A stretch of DNA of 64,000 bases from a plasmid: NCBI RefSeq assembly GCF_056746865.1, contig NZ_JBWKMP010000005.1; one strand, written 5' to 3'. The position numbers were made by a program. Below are positions 57,001-63,000 of the stretch, in pieces (the first letter of the stretch is position 1; every line of letters starts with the position of its first letter).

Positions 57001-60000
57001 TCATAAACGGGTGTTATACCGATTTGCTCAGATGTTAACGTTCCTCCTGAATTACGTTTGTCTGGATATTTATAAAGATAGTCATTGATAACATTTGCGA
57101 AATGGACAAATTCAATTGCTTCCTGTTTTGCAGGAAGCAACTTCATTCGCTGTATGGTTTGGTTATTGTTATCTGTCAGATAGTAACTGCCTATTGACAG
57201 GAATATCAGGAGCAAGCTGAAGAACCAACCCATAGCGATTACTCCTGTTGTGTGTCTTTAATTGTGATTACGCATTGTGCAATATTCCTGAATGCGTATA
57301 ACGGTTTATCTGCTGAAAGATAAAGCATCAGCGTATCTTTTAATGCAGATTCAAAGTTTCCCCGGAAAATAAGAGGAGCATCTATTCTGTAGTTCACAGG
57401 AGTATCCCATACAAGATTCCAGGTTGAAGTACCACACGGCGAACTTGACGCCCATTCGGTGAGGCCATCCCGCAGCGTCGAACCTTTTTTAAGATTCCAG
57501 GTGAGTTTTTCTGTCTGTTTTTGCGGAACGGTGACAGGCGTTAGCGGTTTTTGAGGTAACTTGTCAGAGGAAACTGGTGTCCTGACAGGAGATGCAGGGG
57601 TTTTGTCAGGAGATACAGGTGCTTTTTGTGATGTTTTCCCTTTCTGTTGTTGAAAATCAATCAGAAGATGTCTTTTTTCGGTGTTCTTAATTACTGTCAG
57701 ACCGTAGTTGCGAAGCATTTTATCCAGGACATAAGGCCATTGATCGTTGCCCTGCCAGGATATCGTGCGACGGAAAGTTTTCGTTACCTCCGGGGATATT
57801 TCAGCCGTCCAGTCCGATGGGACAATTTCTTTTAATGCTTTTTGCAGCGAGCCTTTACCATCATGGCGAACAAAGTAAATTTGCTTTTCAGGTGTTGATG
57901 GGCCTGTAAGCGTGGTGGCCGGAACAGCGTTGTTAGCGTTTTTTTTCAGAAAACCGCTTTTTGACATTAGCGGTGGTTGTTCAGGACGCGGTTTTGTCTG
58001 CTGATCAGTCTTTTGTGCCGTTTGTGCCTGATGGTTGTTGCTACTGATTGGCTTTGCGGGAGAGAGTGCTGGTTGTTCAGAATGCTGTTTAGTTGCTCCT
58101 TTGGCTGCTGTTTTTATCTCACCAGATGAAGTTATGCTGTTTGTTGTCGGCTTCAGAAAACTATTATTGCTGCCCTGGTTTTTTGGCGCTGTCGCTGATT
58201 GCTCAGAACGTGGTTTTACGGTTTCTGCAATACGAGGCGCGGGAGTTACGTTTATGGCTTCCTTTTTGAGATAATTATCATTGCTGTATTGAACAGTGCT
58301 GTTTGGCTGTGACACGGGTTGCTGAAGGATCACCCCGTTATAGTATGTGTCTGCTCTTACCTGCTCAATTGTGGTATTCAGTTCATACCAACCTCCTTTT
58401 GCCTGTGCGGGTTCAGGGGCATGGGAACACGCATTCAGCAATAATGTGGTGGGAATAATAATGAGCTTTTTCATGGTTAACCCCAGGAACGTCCGAACTT
58501 ACTCATGATTTTTGAGATCGCCGCAGGGTCTGCGGTCGTGCATTGATTAAGAAACGCTTTTCGGGCATCAAAGGTTTTGCTCCAGCGAATAGATCCCTTT
58601 TTCTTTTTTATGATATTAAAGAAGTCCTTTTCGGCGCTTTTGCATTCGCTCCCGCCGCCGCTACCGATAGCTTTACCGTACAGACAAAGAACGGAAGCAC
58701 ATGGATCAGACGCATATACGGGGGCAGTGAGTGCGATAGCACTTGCGGCAACCATCGATAAAATGATGGATTTCATGGTGTTCCTCCATATTTCAGGCAA
58801 AAGAAAACCCGCACGAGGCGGGTTACTTGACAGGTTTAAAATATCAGCGGGTATCTGCCATGTGATAGACGTCGCTGCCTTCTCTTTTTCCCACAGAAAT
58901 CACAAGCAAAACGACCTTCTCATCAATTACCTGATAAACGAGCCTGTAACCGGATGCGCGAAGCTTAATTTTGTAACGGTCAGTATGACCATGTAGCTTG
59001 GCTGCGGGGACGCGTGGATTTATCAGGCGTTCTGACAGTTTCTTTTTGAATTGCTCACGAACAGTGTGACCGAGTTTTTGCCATTCCTTCAGTGCTCTGT
59101 GGTCAAATGCCAGTTCATAAATCATCCAGGTTAACCCTTACAATGTCTGGATTTTTCATTCTTTCATCAGCAATTGCGTTGAGTTCAGCGTCTTCAGCGA
59201 GTTCCCGGTAGTAGGCATAAAGTTCTGGTGGGACACAGTAGAACGCTGGTTCATTTCGGTTCAGGATTGCGACGGCATCCCCTTCTCCTTCGGCTACAGT
59301 TCCCATAGGATTTTTTTTCAGGTCAGTAATACTGGCTGCTGTCGTAGTCAGAATTTGGTAGCTCATAAGTCCTCCATTTGTATCATGGAGATTGTAGCAC
59401 CTTAAAAAGACTTTTAAAGGTGCTTTTGATTGCGGGGAACGACAAAAATGATCCGGGGTTGGGAATCAACGCACGTGTGGCGTAATGATGACAATCCGGT
59501 TCTCACTTTGGCTATCAGCATTAACTCCAGTAAAACCACTCACGATAAGGGGCTGGTCCGGTTTGAGTAAAATATTCTGCTTGACAGTCAGTTTCCGTAT
59601 CGGGTCAGTGGTTGTGAGTAGCAGGTGGAAATTTCCACGCTCAATCTCCGGTGCTATCCGCATTGTGAAGCCAGCAGTCCGATCTTTTTCAGCCAGTGTA
59701 GTGTCACCGGATATTGCCTGACGGGGGATCAGTTCCGTGGCAGGTTCCCAGCTTCCGGCAGATGTTGTTTGTGATTCAACGCACGGGGTACTCTGCATTA
59801 TTTTGCGGATTGTTTCGGAGGATATCGCCTGACCGTCATCAAAGAATGCACTACGGAAAATCACGTTCTGATTTTTGGCAAACAAGCCTGGATGCCGCTC
59901 GCTCAGACTTTCGTATATATTCATACCATTCAAACAAACAGGAGAACTGTCCGGCAGGTCTGTTCGCACGGTATCAATTTTCAACGTTATCTGGTGGTCA

Positions 60001-63000
60001 TTTGAGGTTAACGGTGACTCAGGTACTGGTTGTGTTTTGCTATCCGCGCAGCCTGACAGTAATGCGGTGGCGGCAACCATCGATAAAATGATGGATTTCA
60101 TGGTGTTCCTCCATATTTCAGACAAAAGAAAACCCGCACGAGGCGGGTATGAATGAGCCATTAAAGGCGGAATTGCACTCTTTGTTTAGTTTTGATATCT
60201 ATCCTGTTGCATCATCAGAACAGAATACTGGAGTTAAGTTGGTTATGGCGCGGTTTTATTTAAATGTACCTTTTGAAGAAAAGGAGTTAGCCAAACAAAA
60301 AGGGGCGCAATGGGATCAAGAACAACGGAAATGGTTTGTTCCACAGGGGAAAAATCCAATTTATTTTATTCAGTGGGTAAAAGAATTAAACGAACATGAT
60401 TACAATATTTTTTCTCAACGTTTTTATATTGCGGAAAGTTACCAGTCATGTTGGCGCTGTAAGAAAATAACTCCTGTGTTTGGTGTTTTTTTGCCTCGTT
60501 GGTTTAGTTATAGAGATGTTGTTTGTGGGGTTAAACCTGCTGAATGGGAAGGTCGCATATTAGATAAATGGTATGAAACATCTTCTCCACGAGGTATGGT
60601 ATATTTTGATTCAAAGAAAAATATAATTTATCAGTGGTTAACCAATCCAAAAGCATGGGCTATTTTATCCAACGTAAGAAGGATATCATCTTCTGCGTTA
60701 TCAATAATCAATAAGCATTCTAAGTTATATTATCCCGCCTATAGTAAAACAGCGAAAATGACCTACTACGCGAATCATTGTTGTCATTGTAAATCAATGC
60801 AGGGAGACTTTATGATGTTTGATGAGCCAGGTGGTGTGTTTTATCCAGTCACATCTGAACAGGCGAAGAAAATAAAACTCCATGAAGTAATAAATGAAAC
60901 AATTTTTGCTAATGCAAACCACAGGCAAGCCATAGAGTAATGCTTGGTAGTGGAGGTTTTATAAATCTTTACGCAAGATAAAACCCGCACGAGGTGGGTT
61001 TTTATTATGGCATAAGTTTATTTATTGGAGCGTCCAAGCATTTGACTCATGATTTCTTTTCGTTTTAGATCATAGAGTGCTTCGTTGGCATTTTATGTAT
61101 TCCTTAATCAAGGCGCCTTCTCATTTCACTAACTTTCTTTTTATATTCACTATCTTGTTTTTGCTGAAGTGCAGCACGAGCATTATCGCAGTTTTGATCG
61201 GTTATTGTACCTTTCTTGCAATCTTCTAAAGTTTTAGTGGCTTCACTGATGTTGTTTGAGTAATATTCTACAGAATATATTTTTTCTTTACATCCCACTA
61301 ACATTAAACTGGCGAAGATAATTGATGAGGCGATAATTGCATTTCGTGACTTATTCATATCAGCTTAAATCTCTTCTCTTTTGGCGAACATATGTTTCAT
61401 ATTGAGCTTTCCGCTCATTCTCTAGTTGCCGTTCAGCAATATCATATTGCTTCAATTGTAGCTCCATTGTCAATTTTTCTGTATTCAATTGGTTAGATAA
61501 GTCAGCTTTTTTTTGCGGAGTATCTGCTGACGCGAACTCCTTCTGTAACGTGGTTAATCTCTTAGCCCTTTCCTGCATTTCATTGTTGAAATTTTCATAG
61601 AATTTGATCTTAGCCAGGATCGCATCATATTTTTGTTGCGTCTCTGCAACGTTGCTTGATAAGTCATATTGCGATCGCAAAGAGCTAAGATCTGATTTTG
61701 CACTATTTGTTATTGTTGATAGAGAATCCTTCATATAGCTGGATGCGCTATCAAAGCCATTGCTGAAATCAGTGAAGCCTTCGAGTCTTTTCTTCTGTTC
61801 TTCAGCGTATCTTATGGTCTGTTCATATTGTTGCTTGAGTTGCTCAAGCTGTCTTGCCGCTTCAGCAGCACGATTTAGCCCTTCTTCAACTGTTTTAGCT
61901 ATTGCTGCAACGTCTACTACTGGAATACCAGATGCAAAGATTGATGGTGATGTTATGGTAATTATTCCAGCAAAGAGAAATGATAATACTTTATCTTTCA
62001 TGTTAATCACCCCGCTTTAAGTTTACTTCCACGGTTTAATCCCTGAACTAATGCTGATGCAGAACGACTTCCTGCATTAAAGAATGGATTTGGCATTTTG
62101 CTGGCAAAACCATTAGTGAAAGATCGGAGTCCTGATGCTCGCATAAAACCGGATGCAACCTTACCTCCAAAGCCATTAGCGGCTGATGTAAGGCCATTTA
62201 TACCTACCCCGCCAGTAAGAGTTGAGCAGAGAGTACCTACTTGCTCAACAAGGAATATAGATATAACAGTCACCATAAAGAAATAAACTACTGTTGTGAG
62301 AGTTATATTTCCGCTTGATGGGACTGTTTGCTCTACAAAGCTGATGACGAAGCTGAACGATATACTATAAAAAAGATTTAGCAATATATAATTTAAACAG
62401 CTACCTACCCATGCGCTAAACATATTTCTTGTCGAAGCAAATAGAGAAAAACAGATAAATAATATTCCGGCGGATAAGAGAATGCCAACCATGAATGTTG
62501 ATAGAGTTAGAAATACAGTGGTGTAATAAATAAGCAGCAGCCCGCCAACATATCCAACCCCCCAAATTAGATATATGTATAGTTGATCTGTGAAGCTATA
62601 CCACTCCAGAGTATCTAACTCATTATTCTTAAAATCATTTAACGTTACTGAAAGCATATTCCACAAATTATCAACACTGGTTGCAGTTCCTGAACCTCCA
62701 GTAACAGCAGCAGAAAGGTCGGAGCCAGCGTGCATGACAAACGGAATCACAAACTCACTGTAATAAGGTGCTGAATAAGTGAATGCACCAACCAGGGCGA
62801 ATGCACCGATGTTTTTTGTGACCTCACTCATGATGACGTCACGCTGGGAATACGTGATTTCATATATTAGATAAATGACGTATAAGGCTATGGCGGCAAA
62901 GAATACAGGAGATATTGCCTGTGCAACCTTAGCGGCGTTCGTCGCCGCCGTTGATTCAACAGCGGTTGTTACTTTCTCAAGAAATAATGAAACAACATTC

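What the first reader, a model, noticed from the sequence alone, without database searches (positions are those of the whole stretch)
58745..60148. relBE module inside the T4SS block, bracketed by ~85-bp direct repeats carrying a shared promoter, signal peptide and hairpin
Seen in sequence: GCGGCAACCATCGATAAAATGATGGATTTCATGGTGTTCCTCCATATTTCAG(G/A)CAAAAGAAAACCCGCACGAGGCGGGT occurs at ~58745-58825 and ~60075-60148, so two different genes (58477..58776 and 59466..60101) start with the same RBS and MKSIILSMVAA signal peptide. A third copy of the hairpin AAACCCGCACGAGG(C/T)GGGTT lies at ~60975-61000. Between the repeats sit relB-relE. Inference: the TA module and a lipoprotein gene were acquired or duplicated by recombination at this repeat.
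Basis: partly seen in the sequence, partly recalled or inferred. Interest (0 to 1): 0.55.

Follow-up and report, generated by a model that had tools for sequence, protein, structure and literature searches.

The report
Known StbDE toxin-antitoxin between duplicated gene leaders
The repeats are real, but this is an ordinary, already characterised toxin-antitoxin pair (StbDE) of IncI2 colistin-resistance plasmids, sitting in a gene segment flanked by two copies of a terminator, ribosome-binding site and signal-peptide leader that plasmids gain and lose by recombination.

Summary
A 79-nt direct repeat (78/79 identical) lies at 58745-58823 and 60070-60148, and a third, 33-nt copy of its hairpin end lies at 60968-61000.

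The window is an IncI2 plasmid. On the coding (-) strand the repeat reads as an intrinsic-terminator-like hairpin, then a GGAGG ribosome-binding site, then ATG and 11 codons (MKSIILSMVAA). It contains no promoter.

The "relBE" pair is StbD/StbE. Its proteins are identical to those of pHNSHP45, where toxicity, neutralisation, co-transcription and a terminator were shown experimentally (PMC11878559). There it was dispensable for vertical stability.

Of 517 PLSDB records with the repeat:
- 243 have stbE next to the trbM copy.
- 137 have both copies and the lipoprotein gene but no toxin-antitoxin (TA) pair.
- 133 have a single copy.

The repeats therefore delimit the lipoprotein gene, not the TA pair. 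StbDE is a separate ~0.6-kb insertion between the lipoprotein stop codon and the hairpin. The same self-contained module occurs in unrelated plasmids.

The leader belongs to the lipoprotein gene and was copied onto trbM. An "extended" form in 55 records carries 34 lipoprotein codons there. Single-copy forms look like repeat-mediated deletions, and their crossover points differ.

The DUF5710 gene is a further 851-bp indel bounded by hairpin copies.

Verdict: a real but ordinary feature. The module is known; the repeat architecture is a small detail I did not find described.

The parts
58745..58823 (-). Repeat copy 1 (79 nt), the leader of trbM. On the - strand it reads: hairpin ACCCGCctcgtGCGGGT, then TTTTCTTTTG, then the GGAGG ribosome-binding site, then ATG and codons 1-11 (MKSIILSMVAA).
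60070..60148 (-). Repeat copy 2 (79 nt, 78/79 identical to copy 1), the leader of the 211-aa lipoprotein gene. This is the native location of the leader.
60968..61000 (.). Third, partial copy (33 nt, 85%) holding only the hairpin end. It lies between the convergent DUF5710 (+) and eexN (-) genes and has U-tracts on both strands. It is the right boundary of the 851-bp DUF5710 indel.
58806..58824 (-). Intrinsic-terminator-like hairpin 20 nt downstream of the stbE stop codon (7-bp stem, 5-nt loop, U-tract, about -11.5 kcal/mol).
   Evidence: PMC11878559 says stbDE share a strong Rho-independent terminator.
58477..58776 (-). trbM/kikA-family gene (99 aa). Its signal peptide is chimeric: the first 11 residues come from the lipoprotein leader, followed by SAIALTAPVYA, whose LTAPVYA part is shared with IncX TrbM homologues.
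58844..59125 (-). stbE (RelE-family toxin, 93 aa).
59115..59366 (-). stbD antitoxin (83 aa). Its N-terminal part is Phd/YefM/DnaT-like and its C-terminal 27 residues are RelB-like. It overlaps stbE by 11 bp.
59391..59431 (-). stbDE promoter-like site (TTTAAA, 16-nt spacer, TACAAT with an upstream TG) inside the palindrome AGCACCTTTAAAAGtcTTTTTAAGGTGCT, a likely operator. It marks the upstream end of the mobile TA module.
58824..59460 (-). The segment present in TA-bearing plasmids and replaced by 14 nt in TA-less two-copy plasmids. This is the stbDE insertion.
59466..60101 (-). Lipoprotein gene of unknown function (211 aa, lipobox LLSGC). It is the gene the repeats actually bracket.
60149..60940 (+). 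DUF5710 gene, inverted relative to the operon. It is a separate indel bounded by hairpin copies 2 and 3.

Best explanation
The locus is the variable stretch of an IncI2 plasmid transfer region, between virB6-virB5-eexN and trbM-pilL/M-virB1..D4.

(1) The two small genes are the type II toxin-antitoxin pair StbD/StbE. The toxin is RelE-like. The antitoxin has a Phd/YefM-like DNA-binding part and a RelB-like toxin-binding tail. The pair is an autonomous ~0.6-kb module with its own palindromic promoter/operator. It was inserted between the lipoprotein stop codon and the pre-existing terminator hairpin, and it now uses that hairpin as its terminator.

(2) The 79-nt repeat is not a promoter. It is the leader of the lipoprotein gene: terminator-like hairpin, ribosome-binding site and the first 11 signal-peptide codons. 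A second copy of it has been fused in frame to trbM, which gives TrbM a chimeric signal peptide.

(3) Because the copies are long and nearly identical, ordinary homologous recombination or replication slippage between them removes or duplicates the interval. This generates the forms seen in nature: two copies with lipoprotein plus TA, two copies with lipoprotein only, an extended copy carrying 34 lipoprotein codons, and single-copy forms. The short hairpin part also bounds the DUF5710 indel.

Shown here: the repeats, gene identities, architectures and their counts, indel boundaries and SNP-mapped crossover intervals.
Shown by others: StbE toxicity, StbD neutralisation, co-transcription.
Inferred: the order of events, the recombination mechanism and terminator function in this context.
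For: Identity of the plasmid: 100% match to an IncI2 plasmid.

TA pair:
- TIGR02385 RelE_StbE scores 42.5 bits against a cutoff of 27.9.
- The toxin is 72% identical to E. coli RelE (PDB 4v7k, E=5e-35), with K52, K54, R61, R81 and Y87 kept.
- The antitoxin N-terminal part matches DnaT/YafN/Phd_YefM, and residues 57-83 match RelB.
- StbE, StbD, the lipoprotein and TrbM are identical to those of pHNSHP45, whose StbDE was tested experimentally.

Repeat anatomy: the terminator scan hits both copies on the - strand, and no promoter is found. The same 19-mer hairpin occurs in more than 120 unrelated genomes, with an A/T-run flank.

Architectures in PLSDB:
- 243 stbE|repeat|trbM.
- 137 lipoprotein-stop|repeat|trbM.
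- 133 DUF5710|repeat|trbM.
- 55 extended form.
- A minimal eexN|repeat|trbM form also exists.

Age of the duplication: the diverged relative L007 has both copies at a spacing of 702 bp, without TA, and its copies are 77/85 identical.

TA module as an independent unit: homology in an E. albertii plasmid and in an IncK2/Z pil operon runs only from the stbE stop codon to the operator.

Direction of copying:
- A 51%-identical lipoprotein homologue in an IncI1-like plasmid starts MKTRILSIITAATVLSGCA.
- IncX TrbM homologues have unrelated N-termini but share LTAPVYA.
- The extended form carries recognisable lipoprotein codons 1-34 in front of trbM.

Deletion products:
- L147 combines the trbM-copy SNPs of L020 with the right flank of its lipoprotein copy, so the crossover was in the hairpin.
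- L002 and L003 fit a crossover between the two SNPs of an L004-like parent.

DUF5710 empty site: L020 has one hairpin, with the left flank of copy 2 and the right flank of copy 3.
Against: - The order of events is not proven. The locus is mosaic: L002 has an L003-type left flank and a window-type right flank. Inter-plasmid recombination could therefore have reassorted the architectures, rather than repeated deletion creating them.
- The two SNPs in the repeat are arranged differently in TA-bearing and TA-less two-copy plasmids. The TA-bearing form is therefore not simply "TA-less form plus insertion".
- The trbM part of the extended form already contains a motif like lipoprotein codons 5-11. 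It is unresolved whether the extended form precedes or follows the 79-nt form.
- The 8-nt AATATCAG shared at the TA junction fits either microhomology-guided insertion or a deletion scar.
- No deletion or circular product was observed directly. Terminator activity and read-through into trbM were not measured.
Confidence: 0.8

Rival explanations
1. One reading: the lipoprotein gene and the TA pair arrived together as one block by recombination at the repeat. One route would be Campbell-type integration of a circle carrying one repeat copy into a single-copy plasmid.
For: - A single-copy plasmid differs from the window by exactly the 1325-bp interval.
- The SNP arrangement of TA-bearing plasmids, [T,A] lipoprotein-TA [C,A] trbM, is what integration of a circle with a [T,A] repeat into a [C,A] single-copy site would give if the crossover fell in the hairpin.
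- stbE is linked to one trbM allele, which suggests a single origin.
Against: - 137 records and the diverged relative L007 have both repeats and the lipoprotein gene but no TA pair.
- The TA pair has its own indel boundaries inside the interval.
- The TA module occurs alone in unrelated plasmids.
- The trbM of single-copy plasmids already carries the lipoprotein-derived leader, so those plasmids descend from a form that had the lipoprotein gene.
- The argument rests on only two informative SNPs.
Confidence: 0.12
2. The hairpin is a dedicated recombination site, like an integron attC or a dif-type site, and a site-specific recombinase inserts and excises gene cassettes there (lipoprotein, DUF5710).
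For: Two independent indels (the 702- or 1325-bp lipoprotein unit and the 851-bp DUF5710 unit) are each bounded by direct copies of the same hairpin. The empty sites retain exactly one hairpin.
Against: - The 19-mer hairpin is a generic terminator. It occurs once each in more than 120 unrelated genomes, with U-tract flanks.
- No integrase or recombinase gene lies next to it.
- Crossovers map to different intervals of the 79-nt repeat. That is typical of homologous recombination, not of site-specific recombination.
- The repeat extends 60 nt beyond the hairpin into coding sequence.
- There are no Rfam or PADLOC matches.
Confidence: 0.06
3. The near-identity of the two leaders is kept mainly by selection, so that both genes have the same translation-initiation and export signal and are co-expressed. 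The indels would then be incidental.
For: - The leader is better conserved than its flanks between the window and L007: 2-5 differences in 79 nt, against ~84% amino-acid identity for the lipoprotein.
- The hairpin and ribosome-binding site are invariant in all copies.
Against: - Selection does not explain why the copies within one plasmid differ by 1-2 nt while the L007 copies differ by 6, nor why marker SNPs swap between copies. Both patterns point to gene conversion.
- This model is not exclusive of the main explanation.
- No expression data were available.
Confidence: 0.2
4. The duplication is an assembly artefact.
For: None beyond the general risk that repeats pose for assemblies.
Against: About 380 independent complete plasmid records carry two copies (898 matched places in 517 records). 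These include reference plasmids such as pHNSHP45.
Confidence: 0.01

Closest known systems
StbDE of IncI2 plasmid pHNSHP45 (PMC11878559); founding member StbD/StbE of Morganella plasmid R485 (the R485 attribution is from my own knowledge of Hayes 1998 and was not checked here)
   Same: StbE (93 aa) and StbD (83 aa) are identical to the pHNSHP45 proteins. The 11-bp overlap, the GGAGG site before stbD, the AAGGG site before stbE and the downstream terminator match the paper's description.
   Different: Nothing in the module itself. The window plasmid carries a DUF5710 gene upstream of the lipoprotein gene where pHNSHP45 has a second eexN gene.
E. coli K-12 RelBE
   Same: The toxin is 72% identical over 90 residues, with the catalytic K52, K54, R61, R81 and Y87 conserved. 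The C-terminal 27 residues of the antitoxin resemble the RelE-binding tail of RelB.
   Different: The antitoxin N-terminal part is not the ribbon-helix-helix of RelB. It resembles Phd/YefM, YafN and the N-terminus of DnaT. This explains why it is annotated as "dnaT" in IncI2 pangenome work (PMC8868234).
Direct-repeat-mediated deletion and duplication (RecA-dependent or slipped-strand) in plasmid backbones, and TA loci that counter-select deletions (general knowledge, not checked here)
   Same: There are long, near-identical direct repeats. Derivatives retain exactly one copy. Crossover points vary within the repeat. A form also exists that is best explained by unequal crossover followed by internal deletion.
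   Different: The repeat is a functional gene leader spanning terminator, ribosome-binding site and signal-peptide codons, so each deletion regenerates an intact trbM start. A protective role for StbDE is only a conjecture.
Integron gene cassettes / attC sites
   Same: Promoter-less genes are inserted in an operon, and each is bounded by a hairpin-forming repeat.
   Different: There is no integrase. The hairpin is 19 nt and is a generic terminator. Crossovers are not at a fixed position, and the repeat includes coding sequence.

Membership tests
RelE/StbE toxins (RelE/ParE superfamily) | Sequence match to the family model above its curated cutoff | tested here: met
   TIGR02385 RelE_StbE scores 42.5 bits against a cutoff of 27.9. 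Pfam ParE_toxin E=2.5e-12. PDB RelE E=5e-35.
RelE/StbE toxins (RelE/ParE superfamily) | RelE catalytic residues K52, K54, R61, R81 and Y87 | tested here: met
   All five are conserved in a gap-free alignment to E. coli RelE.
RelE/StbE toxins (RelE/ParE superfamily) | Growth inhibition that the cognate antitoxin neutralises; ribosome-dependent mRNA cleavage | not testable with these tools
   Toxicity, neutralisation and complex formation are reported for the identical proteins of pHNSHP45 (PMC11878559; identity). The passages I read do not report the cleavage mechanism.
RelB antitoxins (ribbon-helix-helix type) | N-terminal ribbon-helix-helix DNA-binding domain homologous to RelB/DinJ | tested here: not met
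   RelB models and the RelB PDB peptide match only residues 57-83. The N-terminal part matches DnaT/YafN and, weakly, Phd_YefM (E=0.004).
Type II toxin-antitoxin operon | Antitoxin gene first, overlapping the toxin gene, both small, with a palindromic promoter/operator upstream | tested here: met
   The genes overlap by 11 bp and encode 83 and 93 aa. A promoter-like site lies within a 14+14-nt palindrome at 59391-59431.
Intrinsic (Rho-independent) terminator | GC-rich stem-loop followed by a U-tract on the transcribed strand | tested here: met
   The scan hits 58824..58806(-) and 60148..60132(-), with folding energies of -9.7 to -11.5 kcal/mol. The same hairpin with a U-tract occurs in more than 120 other genomes. 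Termination activity was not measured here.
   No site was found in either copy on either strand. Only the stbDE promoter-like site at 59418..59391(-) lies between the repeats.
Transposon / IS / MITE | Terminal inverted repeats, a short target-site duplication, a transposase | tested here: not met
   No inverted repeats occur at the ends of the segment. The flanking repeat is 79 nt and direct. No transposase ORF is present.
Integron cassette (attC) | An attC site of about 57-141 nt with conserved core sites, and a nearby integrase | tested here: not met
   The hairpin is 19 nt and generic. No integrase is present in the neighbourhood. Crossover positions vary.
Bacterial lipoprotein / Sec signal peptides | A lipobox [LVI][ASTVI][GAS]C, or an AxA-type cleavage site, after a hydrophobic core | tested here: inconclusive
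   By inspection only. The lipoprotein has LLSGC at residues 15-19 and TrbM has VYA|S at 20-23. No signal-peptide predictor was available.

The most novel reading that the evidence does not exclude
The terminator, ribosome-binding-site and signal-peptide leader acts as a recombinase-independent "cassette junction" inside the IncI2 transfer operon. Genes bounded by it (the lipoprotein, DUF5710) could be swapped in and out by homologous recombination, and each event would regenerate an intact trbM start. StbDE, lodged inside the deletion-prone interval, would penalise loss of that interval. This would explain why no single-copy derivative with the TA-linked trbM allele was seen among the 517 plasmids.
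Probability: 0.12. Interest if true: 0.45.

Novelty: already known. Interest (0 to 1): 0.22.

Why it matters
IncI2 plasmids are the main carriers of mcr-1 colistin resistance. The TA pair has been studied functionally, so this finding adds nothing to its biology.

What it does add is a clean structural account of the variable stretch between virB5/eexN and trbM. That stretch has five or more architectures, and all of them can be explained by recombination at one duplicated gene leader plus one independent TA insertion.

This is useful in three ways:
- For plasmid typing and annotation. The antitoxin is mis-called "dnaT" or "hypothetical", and TrbM is annotated at 95, 99 or 130 aa.
- As a caution that presence or absence of relE or the lipoprotein gene marks recombination history rather than adaptation.
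- As a small natural example of signal-peptide capture by partial gene duplication.

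Tried and rejected
- Promoter in the repeat: the scan found none.
- Known RNA family or sRNA: no Rfam match at E<=1 in 57000-62000.
- Defence system: no PADLOC match for any of the five proteins.
- Function of the lipoprotein:
  - Pfam and NCBIfam gave nothing.
  - The family is tiny: 18 representative proteins matched in a library of 1.84 billion.
  - The AlphaFold model was mediocre (pLDDT 62, pTM 0.63).
- Hairpin as a specific mobile or recombination element: rejected, because the exact 19-mer is scattered singly through unrelated genomes as a terminator.
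- Search for single-copy derivatives of TA-bearing plasmids:
  - A synthetic junction carrying the TA-linked trbM allele found no perfect match; the best was 99.4%.
  - The eexN2|repeat|trbM junction found 0 records.
  - This is suggestive of TA protection but is confounded by phylogeny.
- Literature: I searched for IncI2 with kikA, and for IncI2 with direct repeat, deletion, homologous recombination and T4SS, and read relevant passages of PMC8868234, PMC8053102, PMC7508951 and PMC11873049. None of what I read describes the repeats. This is absence in a limited library, not proof.

Full report
**Observation.** The window region is 100% identical to IncI2 plasmid pEF5-18-41_4 and nearly identical to hundreds of other IncI2 plasmids. 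The repeat finder reports a 79-nt direct repeat at 58745-58823 and 60070-60148, with 78/79 identity and a spacing of 1325. The hairpin 20-mer occurs three times in the 64-kb window, against 0.01 expected. The third copy (60968-61000) matches over 33 nt at 85%. ORFs 58477-58776(-) and 59466-60101(-) both begin MKSIILSMVAA inside the repeat.

**Anatomy of the repeat.** All genes here except DUF5710 are on the - strand. Read on that strand, the repeat is ACCCGCctcgtGCGGGT-TTTTCTTTTG, then 10 nt, then GGAGG, then ATG and 11 codons.
- The terminator scan picks up both copies on the - strand.
- The promoter scan finds nothing in them on either strand. The only promoter-like site between the repeats is the one in front of the antitoxin gene, at 59418..59391(-).
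- The exact 19-mer hairpin occurs once each in more than 120 contigs of unrelated bacteria, nearly always with an A-run on one side, which is a U-tract on the other strand. It is a generic intrinsic terminator, not a special site.
- There are no Rfam matches.

**The TA pair.**
- The toxin passes the RelE_StbE model cutoff. It is 72% identical to E. coli RelE and keeps all five catalytic residues.
- The antitoxin matches DnaT/YafN/Phd-YefM in its N-terminal part. It matches RelB only in its last 27 residues. "relB" is therefore imprecise, and the correct name is StbD/StbE.
- The four proteins StbE, StbD, lipoprotein and TrbM are identical to those of pHNSHP45.
- For pHNSHP45, PMC11878559 reports the following. 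StbE is toxic and StbD neutralises it. The two form a complex and are co-transcribed with a strong Rho-independent terminator. About half of IncI2 plasmids carry the pair. Deleting it affects neither vertical stability nor conjugation. It gives only a weak advantage in within-cell plasmid competition.
- PMC8868234 had already noted relE, together with a "dnaT" gene that is evidently this antitoxin, as accessory genes of one IncI2 clade.

**What the repeats bracket.** I searched PLSDB with junction-spanning queries. Of the 517 records that carry the repeat:
- 243 have stbE|repeat|trbM.
- 137 have lipoprotein-stop|repeat|trbM with no TA pair.
- 133 have DUF5710|repeat|trbM, a single copy with neither lipoprotein nor TA pair.
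- Upstream of the lipoprotein copy, 210 have DUF5710 and 158 have a second eexN gene.
- A few plasmids have the minimal eexN|repeat|trbM form.

A diverged metagenomic relative (L007, lipoprotein 84% identical) has eexN-repeat-lipoprotein-repeat-trbM at a spacing of 702 bp. It has no TA pair, and its copies are only 77/85 identical. The duplication is therefore old and brackets the lipoprotein gene. The TA pair is a later addition.

**The TA insertion.** Compared with a TA-less two-copy plasmid (L004), window 58824-59460 replaces 14 nt lying between the lipoprotein stop codon and the hairpin. Homologous modules (84-90% identical) sit in an E. albertii plasmid and inside the pil operon of an IncK2/Z plasmid. 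In both, homology runs only from the stbE stop codon to the operator palindrome. This is a self-contained module without flanking repeats, inserted by some illegitimate event. An 8-nt AATATCAG shared at the junction could be microhomology or a scar.

**Origin of the repeat.**
- A 51%-identical lipoprotein homologue from an IncI1-like plasmid begins MKTRILSIITAATVLSGCA. The leader codons are therefore native to the lipoprotein family.
- The closest TrbM homologues (IncX) have unrelated N-termini and share only LTAPVYA before the cleavage site.
- Decisively, 55 records carry an extended form. In it, the trbM-proximal copy continues through 34 degenerate lipoprotein codons (MKSTILLMVAATAALRLGCADSRTHPVPETPLSK), fused in frame to IMLSMIAASAIAL... 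This gives a 130-aa TrbM. These 55 are included in the 137 above, because split matches are joined.
- Lipoprotein 5' sequence was therefore copied onto trbM.
- It is unresolved whether the extended form precedes the 79-nt form (a 93-nt deletion between short repeats) or derives from it (unequal crossover plus internal deletion). The second lipoprotein-like motif in its trbM part favours the latter.

**Evidence for recombination in the repeat.** Two SNPs mark the copies.
- L147 (eexN|repeat|trbM) combines the trbM-copy markers of L020 with the right flank of its lipoprotein copy. The crossover was in the hairpin.
- The DUF5710|repeat|trbM forms fit a crossover between the two SNPs of an L004-like parent. 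These are different events.
- Copies within one plasmid differ by 1-2 nt, against 6 in L007, and the marker SNP is swapped between TA-bearing and TA-less forms. This suggests gene conversion.
- The DUF5710 gene is likewise an 851-bp indel. The empty site (L020) has one hairpin, with the left flank of copy 2 and the right flank of copy 3.
- The locus is mosaic. L002 has one lineage's left flank and another's right flank.

**Open point.** No single-copy plasmid carries the TA-linked trbM allele; the best match was 99.4%. No eexN2|repeat|trbM junction exists either. This fits the idea that StbDE counter-selects loss of its interval, but it fits clade structure equally well.

**Verdict.** The feature is real. 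The TA module is already known and characterised. The repeats are a duplicated gene leader that serves as a substrate for ordinary recombination.

Noticed in passing
window 60149-60940 (+), with hairpins at 60130-60148 and 60981-60999: The DUF5710 gene is inverted relative to the transfer operon, and its ATG abuts the hairpin. It is an 851-bp indel bounded by hairpin copies. Alleles only ~85% identical exist (L003, L022), and pHNSHP45-type plasmids have a second eexN gene in its place.
   Followed up: partly
window 61104-62010 and beyond; L003, L004, L005: The eexN, virB5 and virB6 genes occur as sharply divergent alleles (about 85% DNA identity, or no alignment at all) next to >99%-identical flanks. 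Some plasmids carry two eexN genes. This fits diversification of entry-exclusion specificity and mosaic recombination.
   Followed up: partly
window 59115-59366 (-): The N-terminal 60 residues of the StbD antitoxin match the N-terminus of primosomal protein DnaT (NCBIfam PRK02854; PDB 9zbu). This probably explains the "dnaT" accessory gene reported for IncI2 plasmids in PMC8868234.
   Followed up: partly
L009 (GCA_902840095.1 contig, IncI1-like), 5001-5585: The only distant full-length homologue of the lipoprotein (51% identical) lies between traB/NusG-like regulator genes and pilI-pilL-pilM-pilN of an IncI1-type plasmid. The gene is therefore associated with thin-pilus loci in both plasmid groups.
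   Followed up: no
window 57969-58219 (within the TcpQ/PilL-like gene 57239-58474, - strand): There are three imperfect ~29-nt direct repeats at spacings of 96 and 126 nt, in the Ser/Pro/Gln-rich central part of the 411-aa TcpQ-domain protein.
   Followed up: no
L005 (NZ_CP041113.1) 6197-7228: An ISEc33 (IS630-like) element is inserted between eexN and virB5 and truncates the annotated virB5 gene.
   Followed up: no
L017 (CP088788.1, IncK2/Z) 2505-3027: A homologous stbDE module is inserted, in the opposite orientation, between pilP and the pilQ/tadA-like ATPase gene of a type IV pilus operon. This is a second case of the TA pair lodging inside a conjugation-related operon.
   Followed up: no
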